The notes beneath the pieces were generated by a model that was not told where the DNA came from, did no database searches, and was given only the letters and a program-made list of their open reading frames with translations. From NCBI RefSeq assembly GCF_004353825.1, contig NZ_SMNA01000001.1, positions 434,001 through 498,000 on the forward strand: DNA of 64,000 nt. Direction: 5' to 3'. This DNA is from Occultella glacieicola. GTDB lineage: Bacteria; Actinomycetota; Actinomycetes; Actinomycetales; Beutenbergiaceae. Each line of letters opens with the position of its first letter. Position 1 is the stretch's first letter. Positions 17,360 through 23,999 of this stretch are shown piece after piece. A program made the translations under genes and the position numbers.

Positions 17360-17670
17360 GTTCACTTGTCGAGGGGATTCGGGTGGGCCCCTTACGGGCC
17401 GTCGCTCGATGGCGACATCTGCGCGCGCAACATAGGCGGCGGTATGCCCTATGTCAATACCAACATGGCCGTCCCCGTCCCGTAGCAGTGGTGGGGCGCG
17501 GACTTGGAACCCAGGCCCGTCGGCCTAGACGGTATGTAGCGACCCGGTCGCTGTGACGGGGGTGCGGGCCGGGGCCTCGCTCACGAGATTCGTGGGTTAC
17601 CGAGTAGGGGCTGCCTGCTCGGCCTATCCGACATTCGTGGGAGGCCCCGGAGTTTACCGAGCGTACGAGC

Positions 17671-18729
17671 GTGGGGCTCGACGTGCACGCACGATCGATC
17701 GTTGCAGCAGCGATCGACGGCGTCACGGGCGAGCTCATCCAGTCCAGACTGACCCCGTCGCATGTGCACATCCGCTCCTGGCTCGCCGACCTGCCTGGCC
17801 CAGTGGCGGTGGCCTATGAGGCGGGCCCGACTGGCTTCGGCCTGTCCCGTTCGCTGACCGCGGCGGGGATCAGGTGTGAAGTGGTGGCGCCCTCGAAGTT
17901 GCAGCGCCCCAGCGGTGACCGGGTCAAGACCGATGCCAGGGACGCGGTGCACCTAGCGCGGCTGCTGCGACTGGATGAGTTCACCGCGGTCTGGGTCCCG
18001 ACCCTGGATCAGGAGACCGCCCGTGATCTGGTCCGGGCGCGTGAGGACGCCCGCGGTGACTTGATGCAGGCCCGGCACCGACTCTCCAAGCTGCTGCTGC
18101 GTCAGGGCCTCGTCTACTCCGAAGGCCGCGCCTGGACCGGGGCGCATGAGGCCTGGCTGCGTCGGCAGCGTTTCCAGTCACCGGCGCTGCAGCTGGCGTT
18201 CGAGTCCGACTTCGAAGCCGTGCTCACGGTGCAGGCGCGGCGGGACCGACTCGATGAAGCGATCGCGATGGCCCAGGACAGTGAGTTCACGCCGATTGTG
18301 CGGCGACTGGGCTGTCTGCGAGGGATCAGCAACCTAACCGGGCTGGCTTTGGCGGTCGAGGTCGGCGACTGGCACCGCTTCACCGGTAACAGCATCGGCT
18401 CCTTCGTCGGGCTGGTCCCCTCGGAGTGCTACTCCGGCGCCTCACGGGTACAGGGCTCGATCACCAAGACCGGAAACACCCACCTGCGGCGACTGCTGGT
18501 CGAGGCCGCCTGGCACCACCGCGCCCGCTACGCCATCGGCAAGACCATCCAAGACCGATGGGAGCTGGCTCCAGTGGCCGCCCGCGCCCGCGGAGACGCC
18601 GGGAACCGGCGCCTGCACGCCCGCTGGAACAGTTTCCGCGAACGCCGCAAGCGGCACGTGGTCGCCAACGTCGCCATCGCCCGCGAGCTGTCCGGCTGGT
18701 GCTGGTCCCTGGCCGTTCTCGAGGAGTAG
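17671..18729 (+). CDS. IS110-family transposase/recombinase
   Basis: DEDD RuvC-like motifs GLDVH, YEAGPTG, KTDARDA; C-terminal GLVPSECYSG..GSITKTGN..LRRLLVEAAW; the expected start at 17650 reads GAG. Confidence 0.93.
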   Translation: MGLDVHARSIVAAAIDGVTGELIQSRLTPSHVHIRSWLADLPGPVAVAYEAGPTGFGLSRSLTAAGIRCEVVAPSKLQRPSGDRVKTDARDAVHLARLLRLDEFTAVWVPTLDQETARDLVRAREDARGDLMQARHRLSKLLLRQGLVYSEGRAWTGAHEAWLRRQRFQSPALQLAFESDFEAVLTVQARRDRLDEAIAMAQDSEFTPIVRRLGCLRGISNLTGLALAVEVGDWHRFTGNSIGSFVGLVPSECYSGASRVQGSITKTGNTHLRRLLVEAAWHHRARYAIGKTIQDRWELAPVAARARGDAGNRRLHARWNSFRERRKRHVVANVAIARELSGWCWSLAVLEE

Positions 18730-18764
18730 CCCACCGCTTCGCCGACCAACGTGGTGCAAGCAGC

Positions 18765-18976
18765 GCGTGGAGCGACCCGCGACGCAACTATGAGCAGCCC
18801 GGTCCCGCCAGGTGACGCTCGACCCTAGACACGCGGCCCGCTCCAGCCGAACACCCCGTCCTGCGGTAACCAACCCGCGCATATCAGTCTGACCGCGCGT
18901 CGCCAACGACGCGCTCACCACCGACACCGTCGACGAAGCAGAGGCGCCCGCCCCACCAACACGGGACGGGCGCCTC
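18765..18976 (+). ncRNA. Putative bridge/seek RNA of the IS110 element
   Basis: Nested stems (GGAGCG/CGCTCC, CCGCG/CGCGG, GAGC/GCTC) enclosing GCAACTA and CCTAG, which match the target; second loop CCGTC..CATATCAG matches the element ends; terminal hairpin 18941-18976. Confidence 0.7.
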
Positions 18977-19006
18977 ACTCTGCCACTTGACAGAAACGGC
19001 TACATA

Positions 19007-21364
19007 TCAGTTGCCGGCGGTGGGAACCGTTTCCAAGTATGGGTGATAAGCGTCGTGAATCTTGAGCCTTTGTTCGGGCACCCGTGGTTGCACCCTCCGC
19101 GCCAATGCCTCGACCCGTTCACTTTCGCTTCCGACCTCCGGGTAAACGAAGTCATTTGCATGTGCTTCCGGCCCCAGCACGCATATCGATATCAGCTTTT
19201 CGATCGTTCGATCCACGCGGTCCTCCGCAATACCTGCCTCCACCAGCCCAGTCGACAACTGCGCACGAGAGAGGATGGCAGGAGCGCCTAAGAGAGAGTA
19301 CAAAGCGCTTCGGAGCTCGGGAACAGTAACCCCGTTCTCCACCAACAGCGCATCGAACGCATAGTTAGAGTACACCTCGCGTGCAGCAATCATGTCGCTA
19401 CACGTTATCCTATTATTGCCGCGGTCAATGGCGCTTGCTACGGCCGCGTTCGCCAAGACCAGGACATCTCTGGGTCGGGGTTGAACGCTCGACGCTATGA
19501 ACGTACGCGTATCGATGTCGTTAACCTCTGGCGGAAAGACTTCGTCCCACACGCTCTTGCCTGGCCGTCCGCCGGCTTTGACTTCGTACCGAGCCTCGAG
19601 CACGTGCAGCAGAGTATTGGCGTCCTGCCATTTCACGGTTGAGAGAGGGAGCTTGTCGGGCTCACGAGCCTCGGTGCGCAGGTAGTGATAGATGTCGCTG
19701 CGCAGGAACACGGACACTGTCAGGCGCACTCGGTCGCGCCACCAATCTTGGCGATCAAAATCGCGCACTACGTTGCCTCGGGCCACGAGCAGACCCAGGA
19801 TGAACTTCGCCACTAATCGCAAGTCGACATTCTTGTCCCAACCTTTATCGAGGTTGTCGACAAGAATTGCGACTCGCCTCCGCGTGCGGAGCACGCCTCC
19901 GAGGACAGACCGCAACTGATTGAGCGCCTGTGCGTGAAACGCCTCATTGATGAGGTCCCGCCGAGGTGAACTCGAGTCCCCAGACGCGACTCGGTGCGAC
20001 AAGTGGTCGAGTGTCTGCTCAAGTCGTGTCGAGATGTCTGCGCGAAGGTCGAACGGCGCGTTCTCAACGTAGTTGATGAACCGTTGCTCGTCAGCACTCA
20101 CCGGGATGGTCGGGCCTCGTGCGTCGATGGCTTGAAGGACCGCAGACCCGACTTCGGATTGTATGACGAAGCGCCAGAGCGCATCGAAAAAGTAGTCCTG
20201 TTGTCCAGCAGGAAGGCTCATGACGGTCTCGAACATGGCTGGGAACTCGAAGGCGGGCGGTTTGATGAGGACTACGAGGTTCGTCTTGTTTGCGCGCAGG
20301 TGGTCGAGTGCACGAAATGCATTCGCCGTCTTACCTGTCCCCCGGTGGCCAACGAAGATGGTGTCCCGCGCATCGATGACGTCGTTGTAAGCTGACGTTT
20401 CGACGAAGTATTCGGAAAGTTCATTCAACTCATTCTCGGCAACATGCTCTCCGAATTTGAGGAGCGAGAGAGGGTTCCTTGGAGAACGTCGGGGCCTACT
20501 CCAGTCAACGCCTTCGAACGGCAGCGAGTCGAGCCAATCTCGAGCGAGTTGCACGCACTCTCGGGCGTACGTGTACTTCTGCAGAAGGGCCTCGTAGTCG
20601 AACGGGGCGTCGTACTCGGGTTCGGCCAACATGAAGATCGGCGTATCCAAACCGCGTGCTAGTCCAGCTGCAATGGCGTGCCGAACATTTATGACAGTGG
20701 ATCTGTTCCTGTGTGGTCCTGCGAAGTGAATCAGTACGCCAGCACTACGCATGATTGATGGGGCGAGCCAAGTTATCGGCTCAAAACTTGACTCCTTTGG
20801 ATCGGAGACTAAGACTTGAGTGCCGCGCTTGCGACGCTCATCGATGAATGCGCTCAATCGTGAGGATGCTTCGAAAGGGTCGAATGTAGGACAGTAGAGC
20901 AGGGAATCGCGCGGCTCTGAAACCTCAGGGAGGCTTGGCTCCAGCAAGTCGTCGTAGGCGGTCCTTTCATCTTCCCACGGAGTACTCTCAAGAAGATGTG
21001 AGCTCAAGTCGGTACTGTTGAAGTAGGAGGTATAGCCCAGCGGTTTCAACGTGGACAACTCGTTGAAGTCTTGCTTGCCGCTAGTCACAGATTGGTCGAG
21101 AAGGATTCGGATCGACTTTCCCCGTGCCATTGCATAGCCGAGCTCAAAAGCGACGTTTGAGTTGAGTTGGGTTAGATCGAATACGGCCGAGGCAGATTGG
21201 TCGATTTGAGAGAGGACTCGTGAAATTACCACTCGTCCGTCGACGTCCAGATCTTCCCAACTCTTGGCAGACACGCCTTGCTGGATGAGTTGGGTGACGG
21301 TGCGTCTCATCGTGTCGCCGATACTCCGTGGGCTACTAGGGTAGCCAAAGAACACGTCGATCAT
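19007..21364 (-). CDS. Tandem NDT/TIR-like domains + Sll1717-family P-loop ATPase (candidate defence protein)
   Basis: N-term VFFGYP..FDLTQLNSNVAFELGYAMARGK; GEHVAENE..YFVET; Walker A GHRGTGKT; Walker B ILVDNLD; FLRSDIY; RPRDVL; visibly lower GC than flanks; SD GGGAGG. Confidence 0.78.
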   Translation of the reverse strand: MIDVFFGYPSSPRSIGDTMRRTVTQLIQQGVSAKSWEDLDVDGRVVISRVLSQIDQSASAVFDLTQLNSNVAFELGYAMARGKSIRILLDQSVTSGKQDFNELSTLKPLGYTSYFNSTDLSSHLLESTPWEDERTAYDDLLEPSLPEVSEPRDSLLYCPTFDPFEASSRLSAFIDERRKRGTQVLVSDPKESSFEPITWLAPSIMRSAGVLIHFAGPHRNRSTVINVRHAIAAGLARGLDTPIFMLAEPEYDAPFDYEALLQKYTYARECVQLARDWLDSLPFEGVDWSRPRRSPRNPLSLLKFGEHVAENELNELSEYFVETSAYNDVIDARDTIFVGHRGTGKTANAFRALDHLRANKTNLVVLIKPPAFEFPAMFETVMSLPAGQQDYFFDALWRFVIQSEVGSAVLQAIDARGPTIPVSADEQRFINYVENAPFDLRADISTRLEQTLDHLSHRVASGDSSSPRRDLINEAFHAQALNQLRSVLGGVLRTRRRVAILVDNLDKGWDKNVDLRLVAKFILGLLVARGNVVRDFDRQDWWRDRVRLTVSVFLRSDIYHYLRTEAREPDKLPLSTVKWQDANTLLHVLEARYEVKAGGRPGKSVWDEVFPPEVNDIDTRTFIASSVQPRPRDVLVLANAAVASAIDRGNNRITCSDMIAAREVYSNYAFDALLVENGVTVPELRSALYSLLGAPAILSRAQLSTGLVEAGIAEDRVDRTIEKLISICVLGPEAHANDFVYPEVGSESERVEALARRVQPRVPEQRLKIHDAYHPYLETVPTAGN

Positions 21365-21625: not shown

Positions 21626-22561
21626 TTACGCGACCTCCGGGATGGGGGTCACGGGCGTAGCCTGCCGGTGAGCGTGTTCGAACTCAATGGGTGGCAGTTG
21701 CCCGATTGAGGAGTGGAGGCGGTCGTGGTTGTACCAGTGGACCCAGCGGGCGACTTGCCACTCGACCTCAGCGTGGTTCTTCCAGGTCGGTCCACCGTCG
21801 TTGATCGCCTCGGTCTTGAACAGCCCGATCGTCGACTCGCACAGCGCGTTGTCCAGCGCATCACCGACGGTTCCGATGGATCCGGCGATGCCTGCCTTGG
21901 CCAGTTCGGCGGTCAGCACCAGCGAGACGTATTGAGACCCGGCATCGGAGTGGTGGACGAGCCGGCCGCGCTCCCAGGTTGCTCCGGCGCGGTGACGCGC
22001 GTCGATCGCCTGGCGCAAGGCGTCGGTGACCAGGAAGGCGCGCATGCTTGTGGCGACTCGCCAGCCCAGGATGCGGCGGGAGTACACGTCTACGACGAAG
22101 GCGACGTAGATGAACCCGGTCAGCGTCCAGACGTAGGAGAAGTCGGCCACCCACAGCTGGTCAGGCGCGGTGGGCACATGCCAGCCGCGCTTGACCAGGT
22201 CGGGATGCCGTGGCGCCTCGGCCGACCGGCGGGTCGTGGTGGTGCGGTGCCGTCCCCGGATCGCGCCCGTGATCCCGGCGATGGCCATGAGCCGGGCGAC
22301 CTGATCGCGGCCCACGTCCAGGCCGGCGCGACGGGCGGCGTGCCACAGCTTGCGCACCCCGTACACGCCCCAGTTCTCCCGGTGGAGCGTCACCAGAGCG
22401 TTGGCCAGGTAGGCCCCCTCCAGCAGCGCCGTGCTCACCGGCTGAGACTTGTGGGCGTAGTAGGTGGACGGCGCGATCTTCATTCCATGCTGAGTTAGCA
22501 CGGCGCAGATCGGCTCGACGCCGAACCGGTCCCTGTAGGTGTCGATGTAGGCCACGATCAC
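21626..22561 (-). CDS. IS3 OrfB, DDE transposase core
   Basis: YGVRKLW, LWVADFSYV, HHSDAGSQY, DNALCESTIGLFKTE, WYNHDRLHSSIG. Confidence 0.93.
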   Translation of the reverse strand: MIVAYIDTYRDRFGVEPICAVLTQHGMKIAPSTYYAHKSQPVSTALLEGAYLANALVTLHRENWGVYGVRKLWHAARRAGLDVGRDQVARLMAIAGITGAIRGRHRTTTTRRSAEAPRHPDLVKRGWHVPTAPDQLWVADFSYVWTLTGFIYVAFVVDVYSRRILGWRVATSMRAFLVTDALRQAIDARHRAGATWERGRLVHHSDAGSQYVSLVLTAELAKAGIAGSIGTVGDALDNALCESTIGLFKTEAINDGGPTWKNHAEVEWQVARWVHWYNHDRLHSSIGQLPPIEFEHAHRQATPVTPIPEVA

Positions 22562-22883
22562 TTGAGTCGGCGGTCGAGCTCCGCCTGAGCGAAAACGCTG
22601 ACGCGGTCTTGAGGATCTCGTTCGCGCGCTCCAGCTCGGCCACGCGCTTCTTCAATGCGCGCACCTCCTCGGACTCACTCGAGCGAGCGGCCGCAGGCCG
22701 GCCGCCGCCGGCGCGCTCGGCCTCCTCAATCCAGTTCCGCAGCGTCGCGGGGTTAACGTCCAGGAGCGAGCCGACATGCTTCCGGGCTCCCAACTTCGAC
22801 TCGGTGCCCTCGGCGAGCTTCTCGCGGTACATCCGCACCGCCCGCTCCCGAAACTCACCGTCGTATCTCCTCGGTGCTGACAT
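22558..22883 (-). CDS. IS3 OrfA (HTH); 3' end apparently frameshifted, reads on to 22161
   Basis: RRYDGEFRERAVR..TLRNW..ELERANEILKTASAF; the typical tail AQAELDRRLK* lies in a different frame. Confidence 0.8.
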
Positions 22884-23039
22884 GAGATCCAGTCTCCTTT
22901 GCTAAATCAGCACCCTCCAGGAGATCCAGGGCAGTTCACCGCTGCCATCTCCTTGATCAGCCAAACGACTGCGAAGTTCCGCTGCCTACTCCGCAGCGGG
23001 CCTTATCGTGACGTAGCCTCGACGCCCAGGGAGGGTGCC

Positions 23040-23999
23040 ATGCCGTTTGAACTTGACAATCGACTCGTTGTAGGAGTCGCTTCCAGTGCCCTGTTCGACC
23101 TCTCCGACTCTGATGCAGTCTTCCGTGCGAAAGGCGAAGCGGAGTATCGGCGGTACCAGGAGCAGCACCTCAACGACACGCTCAAGCCGGGCGAGGCATA
23201 CCCGTTCATCAGGCGATTGCTCTCCCTCAACGATCTTGCCGACGCGCCGGATGACCCCCTGGTCGAGGTGATCGTGCTATCCCGCAATGATCCTGACACG
23301 GGTCTGCGCGTCATGAAATCGATCCAGGCACTTGGCCTTCCTATCACGCGCGCTGTGTTCATGCAGGGGCGGTCACCGCACAAGTTTATGCCCGCCTTCA
23401 ACATGTCCCTATTCTTGTCGGCGAGCGCCGAGGCCGTACGCGAGGCGGTGGACGCACGCCTCCCCGCGGGCCAGGTCCTGCCTTCGGCGGCCGTCGAAGA
23501 GGATGACTCCGGCGACCTCCGCATTGCCTTCGACTTCGACGGTGTCCTGGCGGATGACGCGTCGGAGGGGGTAATGCAGGCACAGGGTTTGCCGGCGTTC
23601 CACGCGCACGAGGTCGCCAACCTCGCTACGCCTCACAGCCCCGGTCCCCTAAAGGCGTTCCTCGAAGCGATCAACCGGATCCAGGACCGCGAGCAGGCGC
23701 GGTTCCTGGTAGACCCTGGGTACCGCATCAGAGTCCACGTGGCGATCGTGACCGCTCGCAACGCCCCGTCGCACGAGCGAGCCATGGGCAGTTTGAAGGA
23801 GTGGGGTGTACGGGTGAACGACGCGTTCTTCCTGGGCGGCGTGGAGAAGGCCCGTGTGCTTGAAATCCTCAAACCGCACATCTTCTTCGACGATCAAGCG
23901 GGGCACCTCGCGGGCGCCGCAAAGGTCGCGCCTAGCGTTCACGTGCCCTTCGGCATCGCGAACGCCGCTCCGCCAGCGTCGAACGAGCCGCGCCACTGA
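23040..23999 (+). CDS. 5'-nucleotidase (cN-I-like HAD family)
   Basis: ATG 23040; LVVGVASSALFDL, IAFDFDGVL, TARNAPSHER, FFLGG, PHIFFDDQ. Confidence 0.9.
   Translation: MPFELDNRLVVGVASSALFDLSDSDAVFRAKGEAEYRRYQEQHLNDTLKPGEAYPFIRRLLSLNDLADAPDDPLVEVIVLSRNDPDTGLRVMKSIQALGLPITRAVFMQGRSPHKFMPAFNMSLFLSASAEAVREAVDARLPAGQVLPSAAVEEDDSGDLRIAFDFDGVLADDASEGVMQAQGLPAFHAHEVANLATPHSPGPLKAFLEAINRIQDREQARFLVDPGYRIRVHVAIVTARNAPSHERAMGSLKEWGVRVNDAFFLGGVEKARVLEILKPHIFFDDQAGHLAGAAKVAPSVHVPFGIANAAPPASNEPRH

What the first reader, a model, noticed from the sequence alone, without database searches (positions are those of the whole stretch)
18765..18976. Bridge/seek RNA whose guide loops match the actual target and donor
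Seen: outer stems GGAGCG/CGCTCC and CCGCG/CGCGG and inner stem GAGC/GCTC enclose an internal loop carrying GCAACTA (18784-18790; reverse complement of TAGTTGC in the reconstructed target) and CCTAG (18824-18828; target top strand through the core). A second module, CCGTC (18856-60) - GCGG/CCGC stem - CATATCAG (18880-87), matches the left end (GACGG, reverse complement) and the right end (CATATCAG) of the element. Known: IS110/IS1111 recombinases use such bispecific RNAs. Inference: a programmable actinobacterial recombinase guide with a predicted target near CCTAGTTGC. The matches are short, so their arrangement within the loops is the main evidence.
Basis: partly seen in the sequence, partly recalled or inferred. 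Interest (0 to 1): 0.7.

Follow-up and report, generated by a model that had tools for sequence, protein, structure and literature searches.

The report
Short-guide bridge RNA of IS110 element
This is the guide RNA of a jumping-gene recombinase of a known RNA-guided family; in related elements four guide letters change together with the DNA site where the element landed, so the guide reading is well supported, but this copy's enzyme gene looks damaged.

Summary
Observation confirmed; interpretation supported and sharpened. The stretch is the right non-coding end of a single-copy IS110-family element (17529-19010, AG core) with IS1111-type layout; the nearest named element found is ISSso6 (41%). 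In 108 distinct insertions, the four bases before the loop's CT are the reverse complement of the four bases right of the insertion in 71 (shuffled mean 4.8). In 36 sister pairs with different guides, own target beat swapped target in 34, tied in 2 and never lost. Stems show compensatory changes; donor-loop and handshake positions co-vary weakly. Corrections: the encoded site is about 8 bp (CTAGTTGC; the extra C barely co-varies), and the window's transposase has lost its start codon and carries further changes, so it is probably inactive. Side result: 36 of 108 guides read N-TGT, and 16 of 46 such flanks hold an IS481 transposase (0 of 118 others), suggesting many relatives home on IS481 ends. 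No RNA or activity data were obtained. Known mechanism, new member with an unusually short site.

The parts
17525..17528 (+). Left half of target (CT, positions -2,-1) plus AG core at the left junction
   Evidence: -1 matches guide in 105 of 108, -2 in 103 of 108 insertions
17529..17532 (+). Donor arm ACGG at the element's left end, read by the CCGT guide
17533..17540 (+). Left sub-terminal inverted repeat TATGTAGC (8 bp here; only TATG is near-invariant in homologs, partly by how ends were found)
17569..17650 (+). Conserved leader hairpin whose 3' arm covers the GGAGG ribosome-binding motif and first base of the start codon (role inferred)
   Evidence: 97 of 107 elements pair at 9-10 of 10 positions, with compensatory variants
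17650..18729 (+). IS110-family transposase gene; family start codon position 17650-52 reads GAG, open frame from GTG 17671 (352 aa); D4, E50, D88, D91, S255-G256 present; probably inactive
18760..18976 (+). Predicted bridge/seek RNA region (ends of the RNA not determined)
   Evidence: no Rfam match
18769..18844 (+). Target-binding stem-loop
   Evidence: compensatory changes in helices 1-5
18784..18790 (+). First target guide: GCAA (variable, reads TTGC) + CT (core) + A
   Evidence: 88, 104, 103, 90 of 108 match at +1..+4
18825..18830 (+). Second target guide CTAG followed by AC, which equals the first two bases of the left end (handshake position, inferred)
   Evidence: handshake concept from PMC11208158
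18856..18860 (+). First donor guide CCGT+C
   Evidence: left-end +3 co-varies, 102 of 108 vs 89.6 shuffled; sister pairs 5 vs 2, and 1 vs 3 at +4
18862..18879 (+). Invariant hairpin inside the donor module
   Evidence: never varies; it was the search anchor
18880..18888 (+). Second donor guide CATATCAG plus next base T, which equals target +1 (handshake position)
   Evidence: next base matches target +1 in 54 of 108 vs 30.8; sister pairs 14 vs 4
18941..18976 (+). GC-rich 3' hairpin, sequence variable; possible RNA end
   Evidence: folds at -15 kcal/mol or better in 106 of 108 elements; no U-tract terminator
18987..18992 (+). TTGACA -35 box facing out of the right end; candidate junction promoter in the circle (inferred)
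   Evidence: 18-19 nt from the element end in 104 of 107 elements that have it
18999..19010 (+). Right sub-terminal repeat GCTACATA, donor arm TC and AG core
19011..19014 (+). Right half of target TTGC
19007..21364 (-). Host gene at the insertion site: 785-aa P-loop ATPase (Sll1717 family); its stop is now the TGA supplied by the element's end

Best explanation
The region encodes the bispecific guide (bridge/seek) RNA of an IS110-family recombinase, lying downstream of the transposase. Shown by sequence comparison: the element is bounded by AG cores; the first loop reads four bases right of the core and two bases left of it, giving an 8-bp site, CTAGTTGC for this copy; the second module matches the joined ends CATATC-AG-ACGG. 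Inferred from IS621 and ISEc11 work: the ends join into a circle that completes a promoter (TTGACA, 17 nt, GACGGT); one transcript carries transposase and RNA; two transposase dimers hold target and donor on the two loops, cut at the core by a DEDD plus serine site, exchange strands and insert without a duplication. This copy landed on the TAG stop codon of an ATPase gene and has since decayed; it is probably immobile unless a transposase comes in trans.
For: Guide-target co-variation: 71 of 108 perfect, 101 of 108 with at most one mismatch, shuffled mean 4.8, maximum 14 of 10000, 46 distinct guides. Using right ends alone, 114 of 181 perfect. Sister-pair test 34 wins, 2 ties, 0 losses; 153 own vs 6 swapped matches at 87 differing positions. 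Compensatory stems. Transposase family and fold. Guide order (top-strand match first) is the order reported for IS1111-type seekRNAs (PMC11187229). The handshake position co-varies as reported for IS621 relatives. Two 49%-identical relatives of the host gene end in C-TAG, as the rebuilt empty site does (L310 read by eye from the printed DNA).
Against: No expression, RNA-binding or activity data. No uninterrupted copy of this very site was found. 37 of 108 insertions have at least one guide mismatch; the four copies in G031 all miss position +4. Donor ends are nearly invariant and were found by motif search, so donor co-variation rests on few changes (sister pairs 5 vs 2 and 1 vs 3). The -10 box is weak. 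Six further CTAGTTGC sites in the genome are empty.
Confidence: 0.93

Rival explanations
1. Only the target loop is a guide (a short seekRNA); the second module is a conserved structural or protein-binding part, and the ends are recognised by protein through the sub-terminal repeats.
For: The donor matches are almost invariant; short seekRNAs of 74-96 nt holding the target matches are the predominant forms in PMC11187229.
Against: Left-end +3 follows the donor guide in 102 of 108 vs 89.6 shuffled, and the base after CATATCAG follows target +1, which is expected only if that module pairs with DNA.
Confidence: 0.12
2. The matches arise after insertion: the guide is rewritten from, or selected to fit, the flanks (for excision) and does not choose the site.
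For: Most elements were seen at one site each; guides change often along the tree (62 changes for 41 guides among 96 proteins); flank matches were needed for circle formation in ISEc11.
Against: Four independent G031 insertions with one guide share CTAG-CTG; IS621 and ISPpu9 excision did not need target flanks; guide changes redirect insertion in ISEc11 and ISEc21 (abstract).
Confidence: 0.04
3. Chance matches in a GC-rich terminator-like region.
For: Single 5-mers are common by chance (0.18, 0.34); fold z is only -2.0.
Confidence: 0.01

Closest known systems
ISSso6 (named in RefSeq annotation; ISEc45 is a little further)
   Same: Best named hit among the 60 of 726 plasmid records listed, 40.8% identical (ISEc45 38%). 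ISSso6 has the same donor hairpin followed by ATATCAG, a TTGACA box, a CATATCAG right end, an AG core and the same 8 bp between the sub-terminal repeats (read by eye).
   Different: 14-bp sub-terminal repeats against 8 bp here; different target. No experimental guide study was seen in the listing.
IS1111-type seekRNA elements ISEc11, ISKpn4, ISPa11 (PMC11187229)
   Same: Long non-coding end downstream of the transposase, sub-terminal repeats, top-strand match 5' of the bottom-strand match, natural re-targeting.
   Different: ISEc11's target is 12 bp against about 8 bp; 6 bp (core included) precede the left repeat against 7 bp in ISEc11.
IS621 and ISCro4/IS622 bridge recombinases (PMC11208160, PMC11208158)
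   Same: Same fold (TM about 0.6, 20% identity); DEDD plus serine; CT core when read on the strand opposite the transposase; four guides in the same order; handshake bases.
   Different: RNA is in the right end, not the left; recognition is 4+2+2 bp against 7+2+2 (11 bp native, 14 extended); donor guides probably sit in a multi-loop.
ISCARN28 (predicted bridge RNA, Extended Data Fig. 10c of PMC11208160)
   Same: Listed next to ISSso6 and ISEc45 in the source-data column order of PMC11187229; that paper set reports pairing patterns of 8-14 nt, so an 8-nt case may already be drawn.
   Different: Its sequence and figure were not visible, so the kinship is a lead only.
ISEc21, IS4321/IS5075 (IS110-family elements that target other mobile elements)
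   Same: Precedent for the IS481-end preference seen in relatives: ISEc21 targets IS3-family transposase genes; IS4321/IS5075 target Tn21 repeats (reference title).
   Different: Different victim and site: here the NCTAGN duplication plus TGT end of IS481; not the target of the window's own copy.

Membership tests
IS110 family | DEDD RuvC-like domain plus Tnp domain | tested here: met
   PF01548 and PF02371 above cut-off; NF033542 200.7 bits vs 140; fold matches IS621/ISCro4
IS110 family | Catalytic D-E-D-D and S-G motif | tested here: met
   D4, E50, D88, D91, S255, G256 invariant in 28 rows; roles assigned by analogy
IS110 family | Short core at both junctions, no terminal repeats, no longer duplication | tested here: met
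   AG at both junctions in window and homologs; ends were found by motif search
Bridge/seek RNA | Target loop whose two arms co-vary with both strands of the insertion site | tested here: met
Bridge/seek RNA | Donor loop that matches and co-varies with the joined ends | tested here: inconclusive
   Match present in nearly all; co-variation at left-end +3 only, few independent changes
Bridge/seek RNA | Conserved secondary structure with compensatory changes | tested here: met
   12 of 29 pairs with two-sided changes; slid controls far lower; target module mainly
Bridge/seek RNA | RNA is expressed, binds the transposase and is needed for transposition | not testable with these tools
   No RNA or read data obtained
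IS110 family | Circular intermediate with junction promoter | tested here: inconclusive
   TTGACA at fixed distance; -10 weak; no circle observed
IS1111 group | Longer non-coding end downstream of the transposase | tested here: met
   281 bp right vs 121 bp left
IS1111 group | Sub-terminal inverted repeats of 7-17 bp | tested here: inconclusive
   8 bp here, but beyond 4 bp only 47, 59, 79, 55 of 108 homologs pair at positions 5-8
IS1111 group | Top-strand match 5' of bottom-strand match | tested here: met
IS1111 group | 7-bp extension outside the left repeat | tested here: not met
   6 bp with the core counted vs 7 bp for ISEc11
IS1111 group | Transposase falls in the IS1111 clade | not tested
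   No tree with ISfinder references was built; group assignment left open

The most novel reading that the evidence does not exclude
A widespread IS110 sub-lineage runs on a minimal guide: four freely changing bases beside a rare CTAG word. It is re-targeted very often in nature (46 guides in 108 insertions), and its commonest setting, N-TGT, has arisen repeatedly because it aims the element at the NCTAGN duplication and TGT end of IS481 elements, a self-renewing landing site made by another transposon.
Probability: 0.5. Interest if true: 0.55.

Novelty: new member of a known kind. Interest (0 to 1): 0.36.

Why it matters
RNA-guided IS110 recombination is established, so this locus adds a member rather than a mechanism. 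Its value is as a clean natural data set: about a hundred elements with dozens of guides make it possible to ask how bridge RNAs are re-targeted, which positions tolerate mismatch, and how short a site can be. An 8-bp site is poor for precise editing but suits many-site insertion in high-GC bacteria, where CTAG is scarce (1089 in this 5.3-Mb genome vs about 4070 expected). The IS481-end preference, if real, is a new case of one insertion sequence using another's footprint.

Tried and rejected
Rfam: no relevant family. Other copies in the genome: none by blastn or tblastn. Empty site: not found in 60 relatives by DNA, in 35 family genomes by protein, or in genome contigs (2 relatives at 49%). 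Longer target: +5 weak (41 of 108 vs 29.4; sister pairs 24 vs 10), +6 and -4 to -6 none, -3 weak at best. Preference for stop codons: 33 of 52 CTAG insertions with long flanks end an open frame of 100 codons or more, vs 610 of 1070 CTAG sites in G000, so no enrichment is claimed. Linear sigma-70 promoter or intrinsic terminator: none. Single-sequence PDB search: no hit; the profile search found ISCro4 and IS621. IS481 inserting after the IS110 element: disfavoured, because the far IS481 ends are followed by NCTAGN, not by the element's ATCAGN. All N-TGT flanks being IS ends: rejected; among 45 frames from 25 further N-TGT flanks, several are ordinary enzymes and none is IS481. No sequencing-run evidence and no earlier scan findings were available.

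Full report
Observation. Taken singly the 5-base matches are common by chance (0.18 and 0.34 in shuffles), but all four together did not occur in 20000 shuffles. No relevant Rfam family matches the region.

Setting. The stretch follows an open frame at 17671-18729 that carries PF01548 and PF02371 and passes the NCBIfam cut-off for IS110 RNA-guided transposases. A model of it (pLDDT 82) matches IS621 and ISCro4 structures best (TM about 0.6, 20% identity). The element runs 17529-19010 with AG at both junctions and 8-bp sub-terminal repeats; the right non-coding end is 281 bp and the left 121 bp. It is the only copy in the 5.34-Mb, 71% GC assembly. It sits at the last codon of a low-GC 785-aa P-loop ATPase gene on the other strand, whose TAG stop is replaced by a TGA from the element's end.

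Data set. Of 303 loci (the window replacing its own genome copy), 266 held the donor hairpin used as anchor and 145 had both ends. 29 were dropped (18 short flanks, 11 loops not parsed), leaving 116, or 108 distinct insertions including the window. Ends and loops were located by motifs inside the element, not by the flanks. The invariance of the ends and of the anchor hairpin is therefore partly built in, but the guide-flank agreement is not.

Target loop. The four bases before the loop's CT are the reverse complement of the four bases right of the insertion in 71 of 108 cases (shuffled mean 4.8, maximum 14 of 10000); 30 more have one mismatch. Per position 88, 104, 103 and 90 of 108 match. 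There are 46 distinct guides. The second arm matches the left flank at -1 (105 vs 97.5 shuffled) and -2 (103 vs 81.1); -3 is weak (42 vs 29.3), +5 weak (41 vs 29.4), and further positions are at chance. Kin are not independent, so 96 intact proteins (12 elements left out) were paired on a tree: of 48 pairs 36 differ in guide, and own target beat swapped target in 34, tied in 2 and lost in none. The encoded site is therefore about 8 bp, CTAGTTGC here. Against a stricter reading, the four copies in genome G031 share one guide (CTGT) but have flanks CTGG, CTGA, CTGG, CTGG and none matches at -3.

Donor module. CCGT and CATATCAG match the joined ends. Where the left end varies at +3 the guide follows (102 vs 89.6), but independent changes are few (5 vs 2; at +4, 1 vs 3). 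The base after CATATCAG follows target +1 (54 vs 30.8; sister pairs 14 vs 4), and the AC after the second target arm equals the start of the left end. Both sit where handshake guides lie in IS621 (PMC11208158, passages). On 94 aligned RNAs 12 of 29 named pairs change on both sides. The consensus fold closes both modules in a multi-loop through nearly invariant pairs, which resembles the description of IS1111-type RNAs in PMC11208160 (section read) but is not proven by co-variation.

State of this copy. At the family's start position 96 of 103 elements have GTG, TTG or ATG; the window has GAG. The window's protein also lacks one consensus residue near position 198 and has Tyr where 93 of 96 have Ser, next to the catalytic serine. 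The catalytic residues are present. With six further CTAGTTGC sites empty, the copy is probably dead; this is an inference.

Mechanism. Shown here: boundaries, guide-target co-variation, conserved stems. Inferred from IS621, ISEc11 and ISEc21: circle formation, a junction promoter (TTGACA lies 18-19 nt from the end in 104 of 107 elements; the -10 candidate is weak), RNA binding and strand exchange at the core. Whether excision is cut or copy is disputed for IS621 itself (10.64898/2026.08.31.748434, passages) and is open here.

Relation to known systems. The layout and guide order are those reported for IS1111-type seekRNAs (PMC11187229: abstract, Results parts 1, 2, 4 and section 12 read). Read on the opposite strand, the order and CT core equal IS621's. 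ISSso6 (41% identical) shares the donor hairpin, the right end and the AG core. An AG core is also reported for ISPpu9 (PMC12288879, passages). I file the element in the IS110 family and leave the IS1111-group label open. Short guides are not new in principle: PMC11208160 reports 8-14-nt patterns, and a 2026 preprint predicts 12-40 programmable bases over 32,190 RNAs (10.64898/2026.10.21.760802, section 2.4 and passages). 10.1101/2025.05.14.653916 was seen as passages only. Figures, one unreadable and several cut supplementary files of PMC11208160, the main supplement of PMC11187229 and all bioRxiv supplements could not be seen and may already hold this lineage. The readable supplements did not hold the element's RNA or end motifs in a relevant row.

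Side result. 36 of 108 guides read N-TGT, scattered over the tree (20 changes), while only 17 of 2178 oriented CTAG sites in G000 are followed by N-TGT. 30 of those 36 elements have an N-TGT flank, against 3 of 72 others. Among 164 distinct right flanks of 250 nt or more, 16 of 46 N-TGT flanks hold an IS481-type transposase, against 0 of 118 others and 0 of 105 left flanks. Two of the 16 were the queries, and one (L141) looks like an insertion inside the gene. At L049 and L037 the far IS481 end is followed by the same six bases as the rebuilt target, and actinobacterial IS481 elements duplicate NCTAGN and begin TGT (PMC2516522, passages). So the IS110 element entered the IS481 duplication. Many N-TGT flanks are ordinary genes, so this is a tendency. 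It was not found in searches (no papers), in the 15 of 121 titles listed, or by term search of one preprint. Targeting of other mobile elements is known for ISEc21. The window's copy does not do this.

Verdict. A real bridge/seek RNA of a known kind, well supported by co-variation, in a probably inactive copy. The short site and the IS481 link are modest extras. Interest 0.36.

Noticed in passing
L049:2849-3950, L037:2882-3980, L060, L113, L117 and others: Relatives with N-TGT guides often sit inside the NCTAGN duplication in front of an IS481 element (16 of 46 N-TGT flanks hold an IS481 transposase, 0 of 118 others).
   Followed up: yes
window 17569-17650: Conserved leader hairpin with compensatory changes covers the ribosome-binding motif and start of the transposase (97 of 107 elements); a likely translation brake.
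   Followed up: partly
window 19007-21364 (-): Low-GC (56-60%) 785-aa Sll1717-family P-loop ATPase with a weak nucleoside 2-deoxyribosyltransferase-like N-terminal hit and a sub-threshold hit to an anti-phage model; not found in 35 other family genomes; possibly a defence gene.
   Followed up: partly
window 21626-22905 (-): IS3-family element with an ALIL frameshift pseudoknot at 22469-22599, upstream of the ATPase; a 5'-nucleotidase gene follows at 22899-23999.
   Followed up: no
G000 whole genome: CTAG is four-fold under-represented (1089 vs about 4070 expected), which sharpens an otherwise short target.
   Followed up: partly
L070, L073, L076, L094, L095, L109, L133, L159, L229, L279, L282: Eleven elements are 1.63-1.81 kb, against about 1.5 kb for the rest; in L070, L073 and L076 the extra DNA lies between transposase and RNA. 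Cause not examined.
   Followed up: no
L081, L153, L150, L083, L115, L119: The 28-base donor-module pattern occurs exactly in Leptospira, Alicyclobacillus, Chloroflexota and proteobacterial records, so the RNA family extends beyond actinobacteria.
   Followed up: no
L075, L120, L123, L293: Where the target reads TC-AG instead of CT-AG, both guide arms change together (CTG and CAG), the only change seen next to the core.
   Followed up: partly
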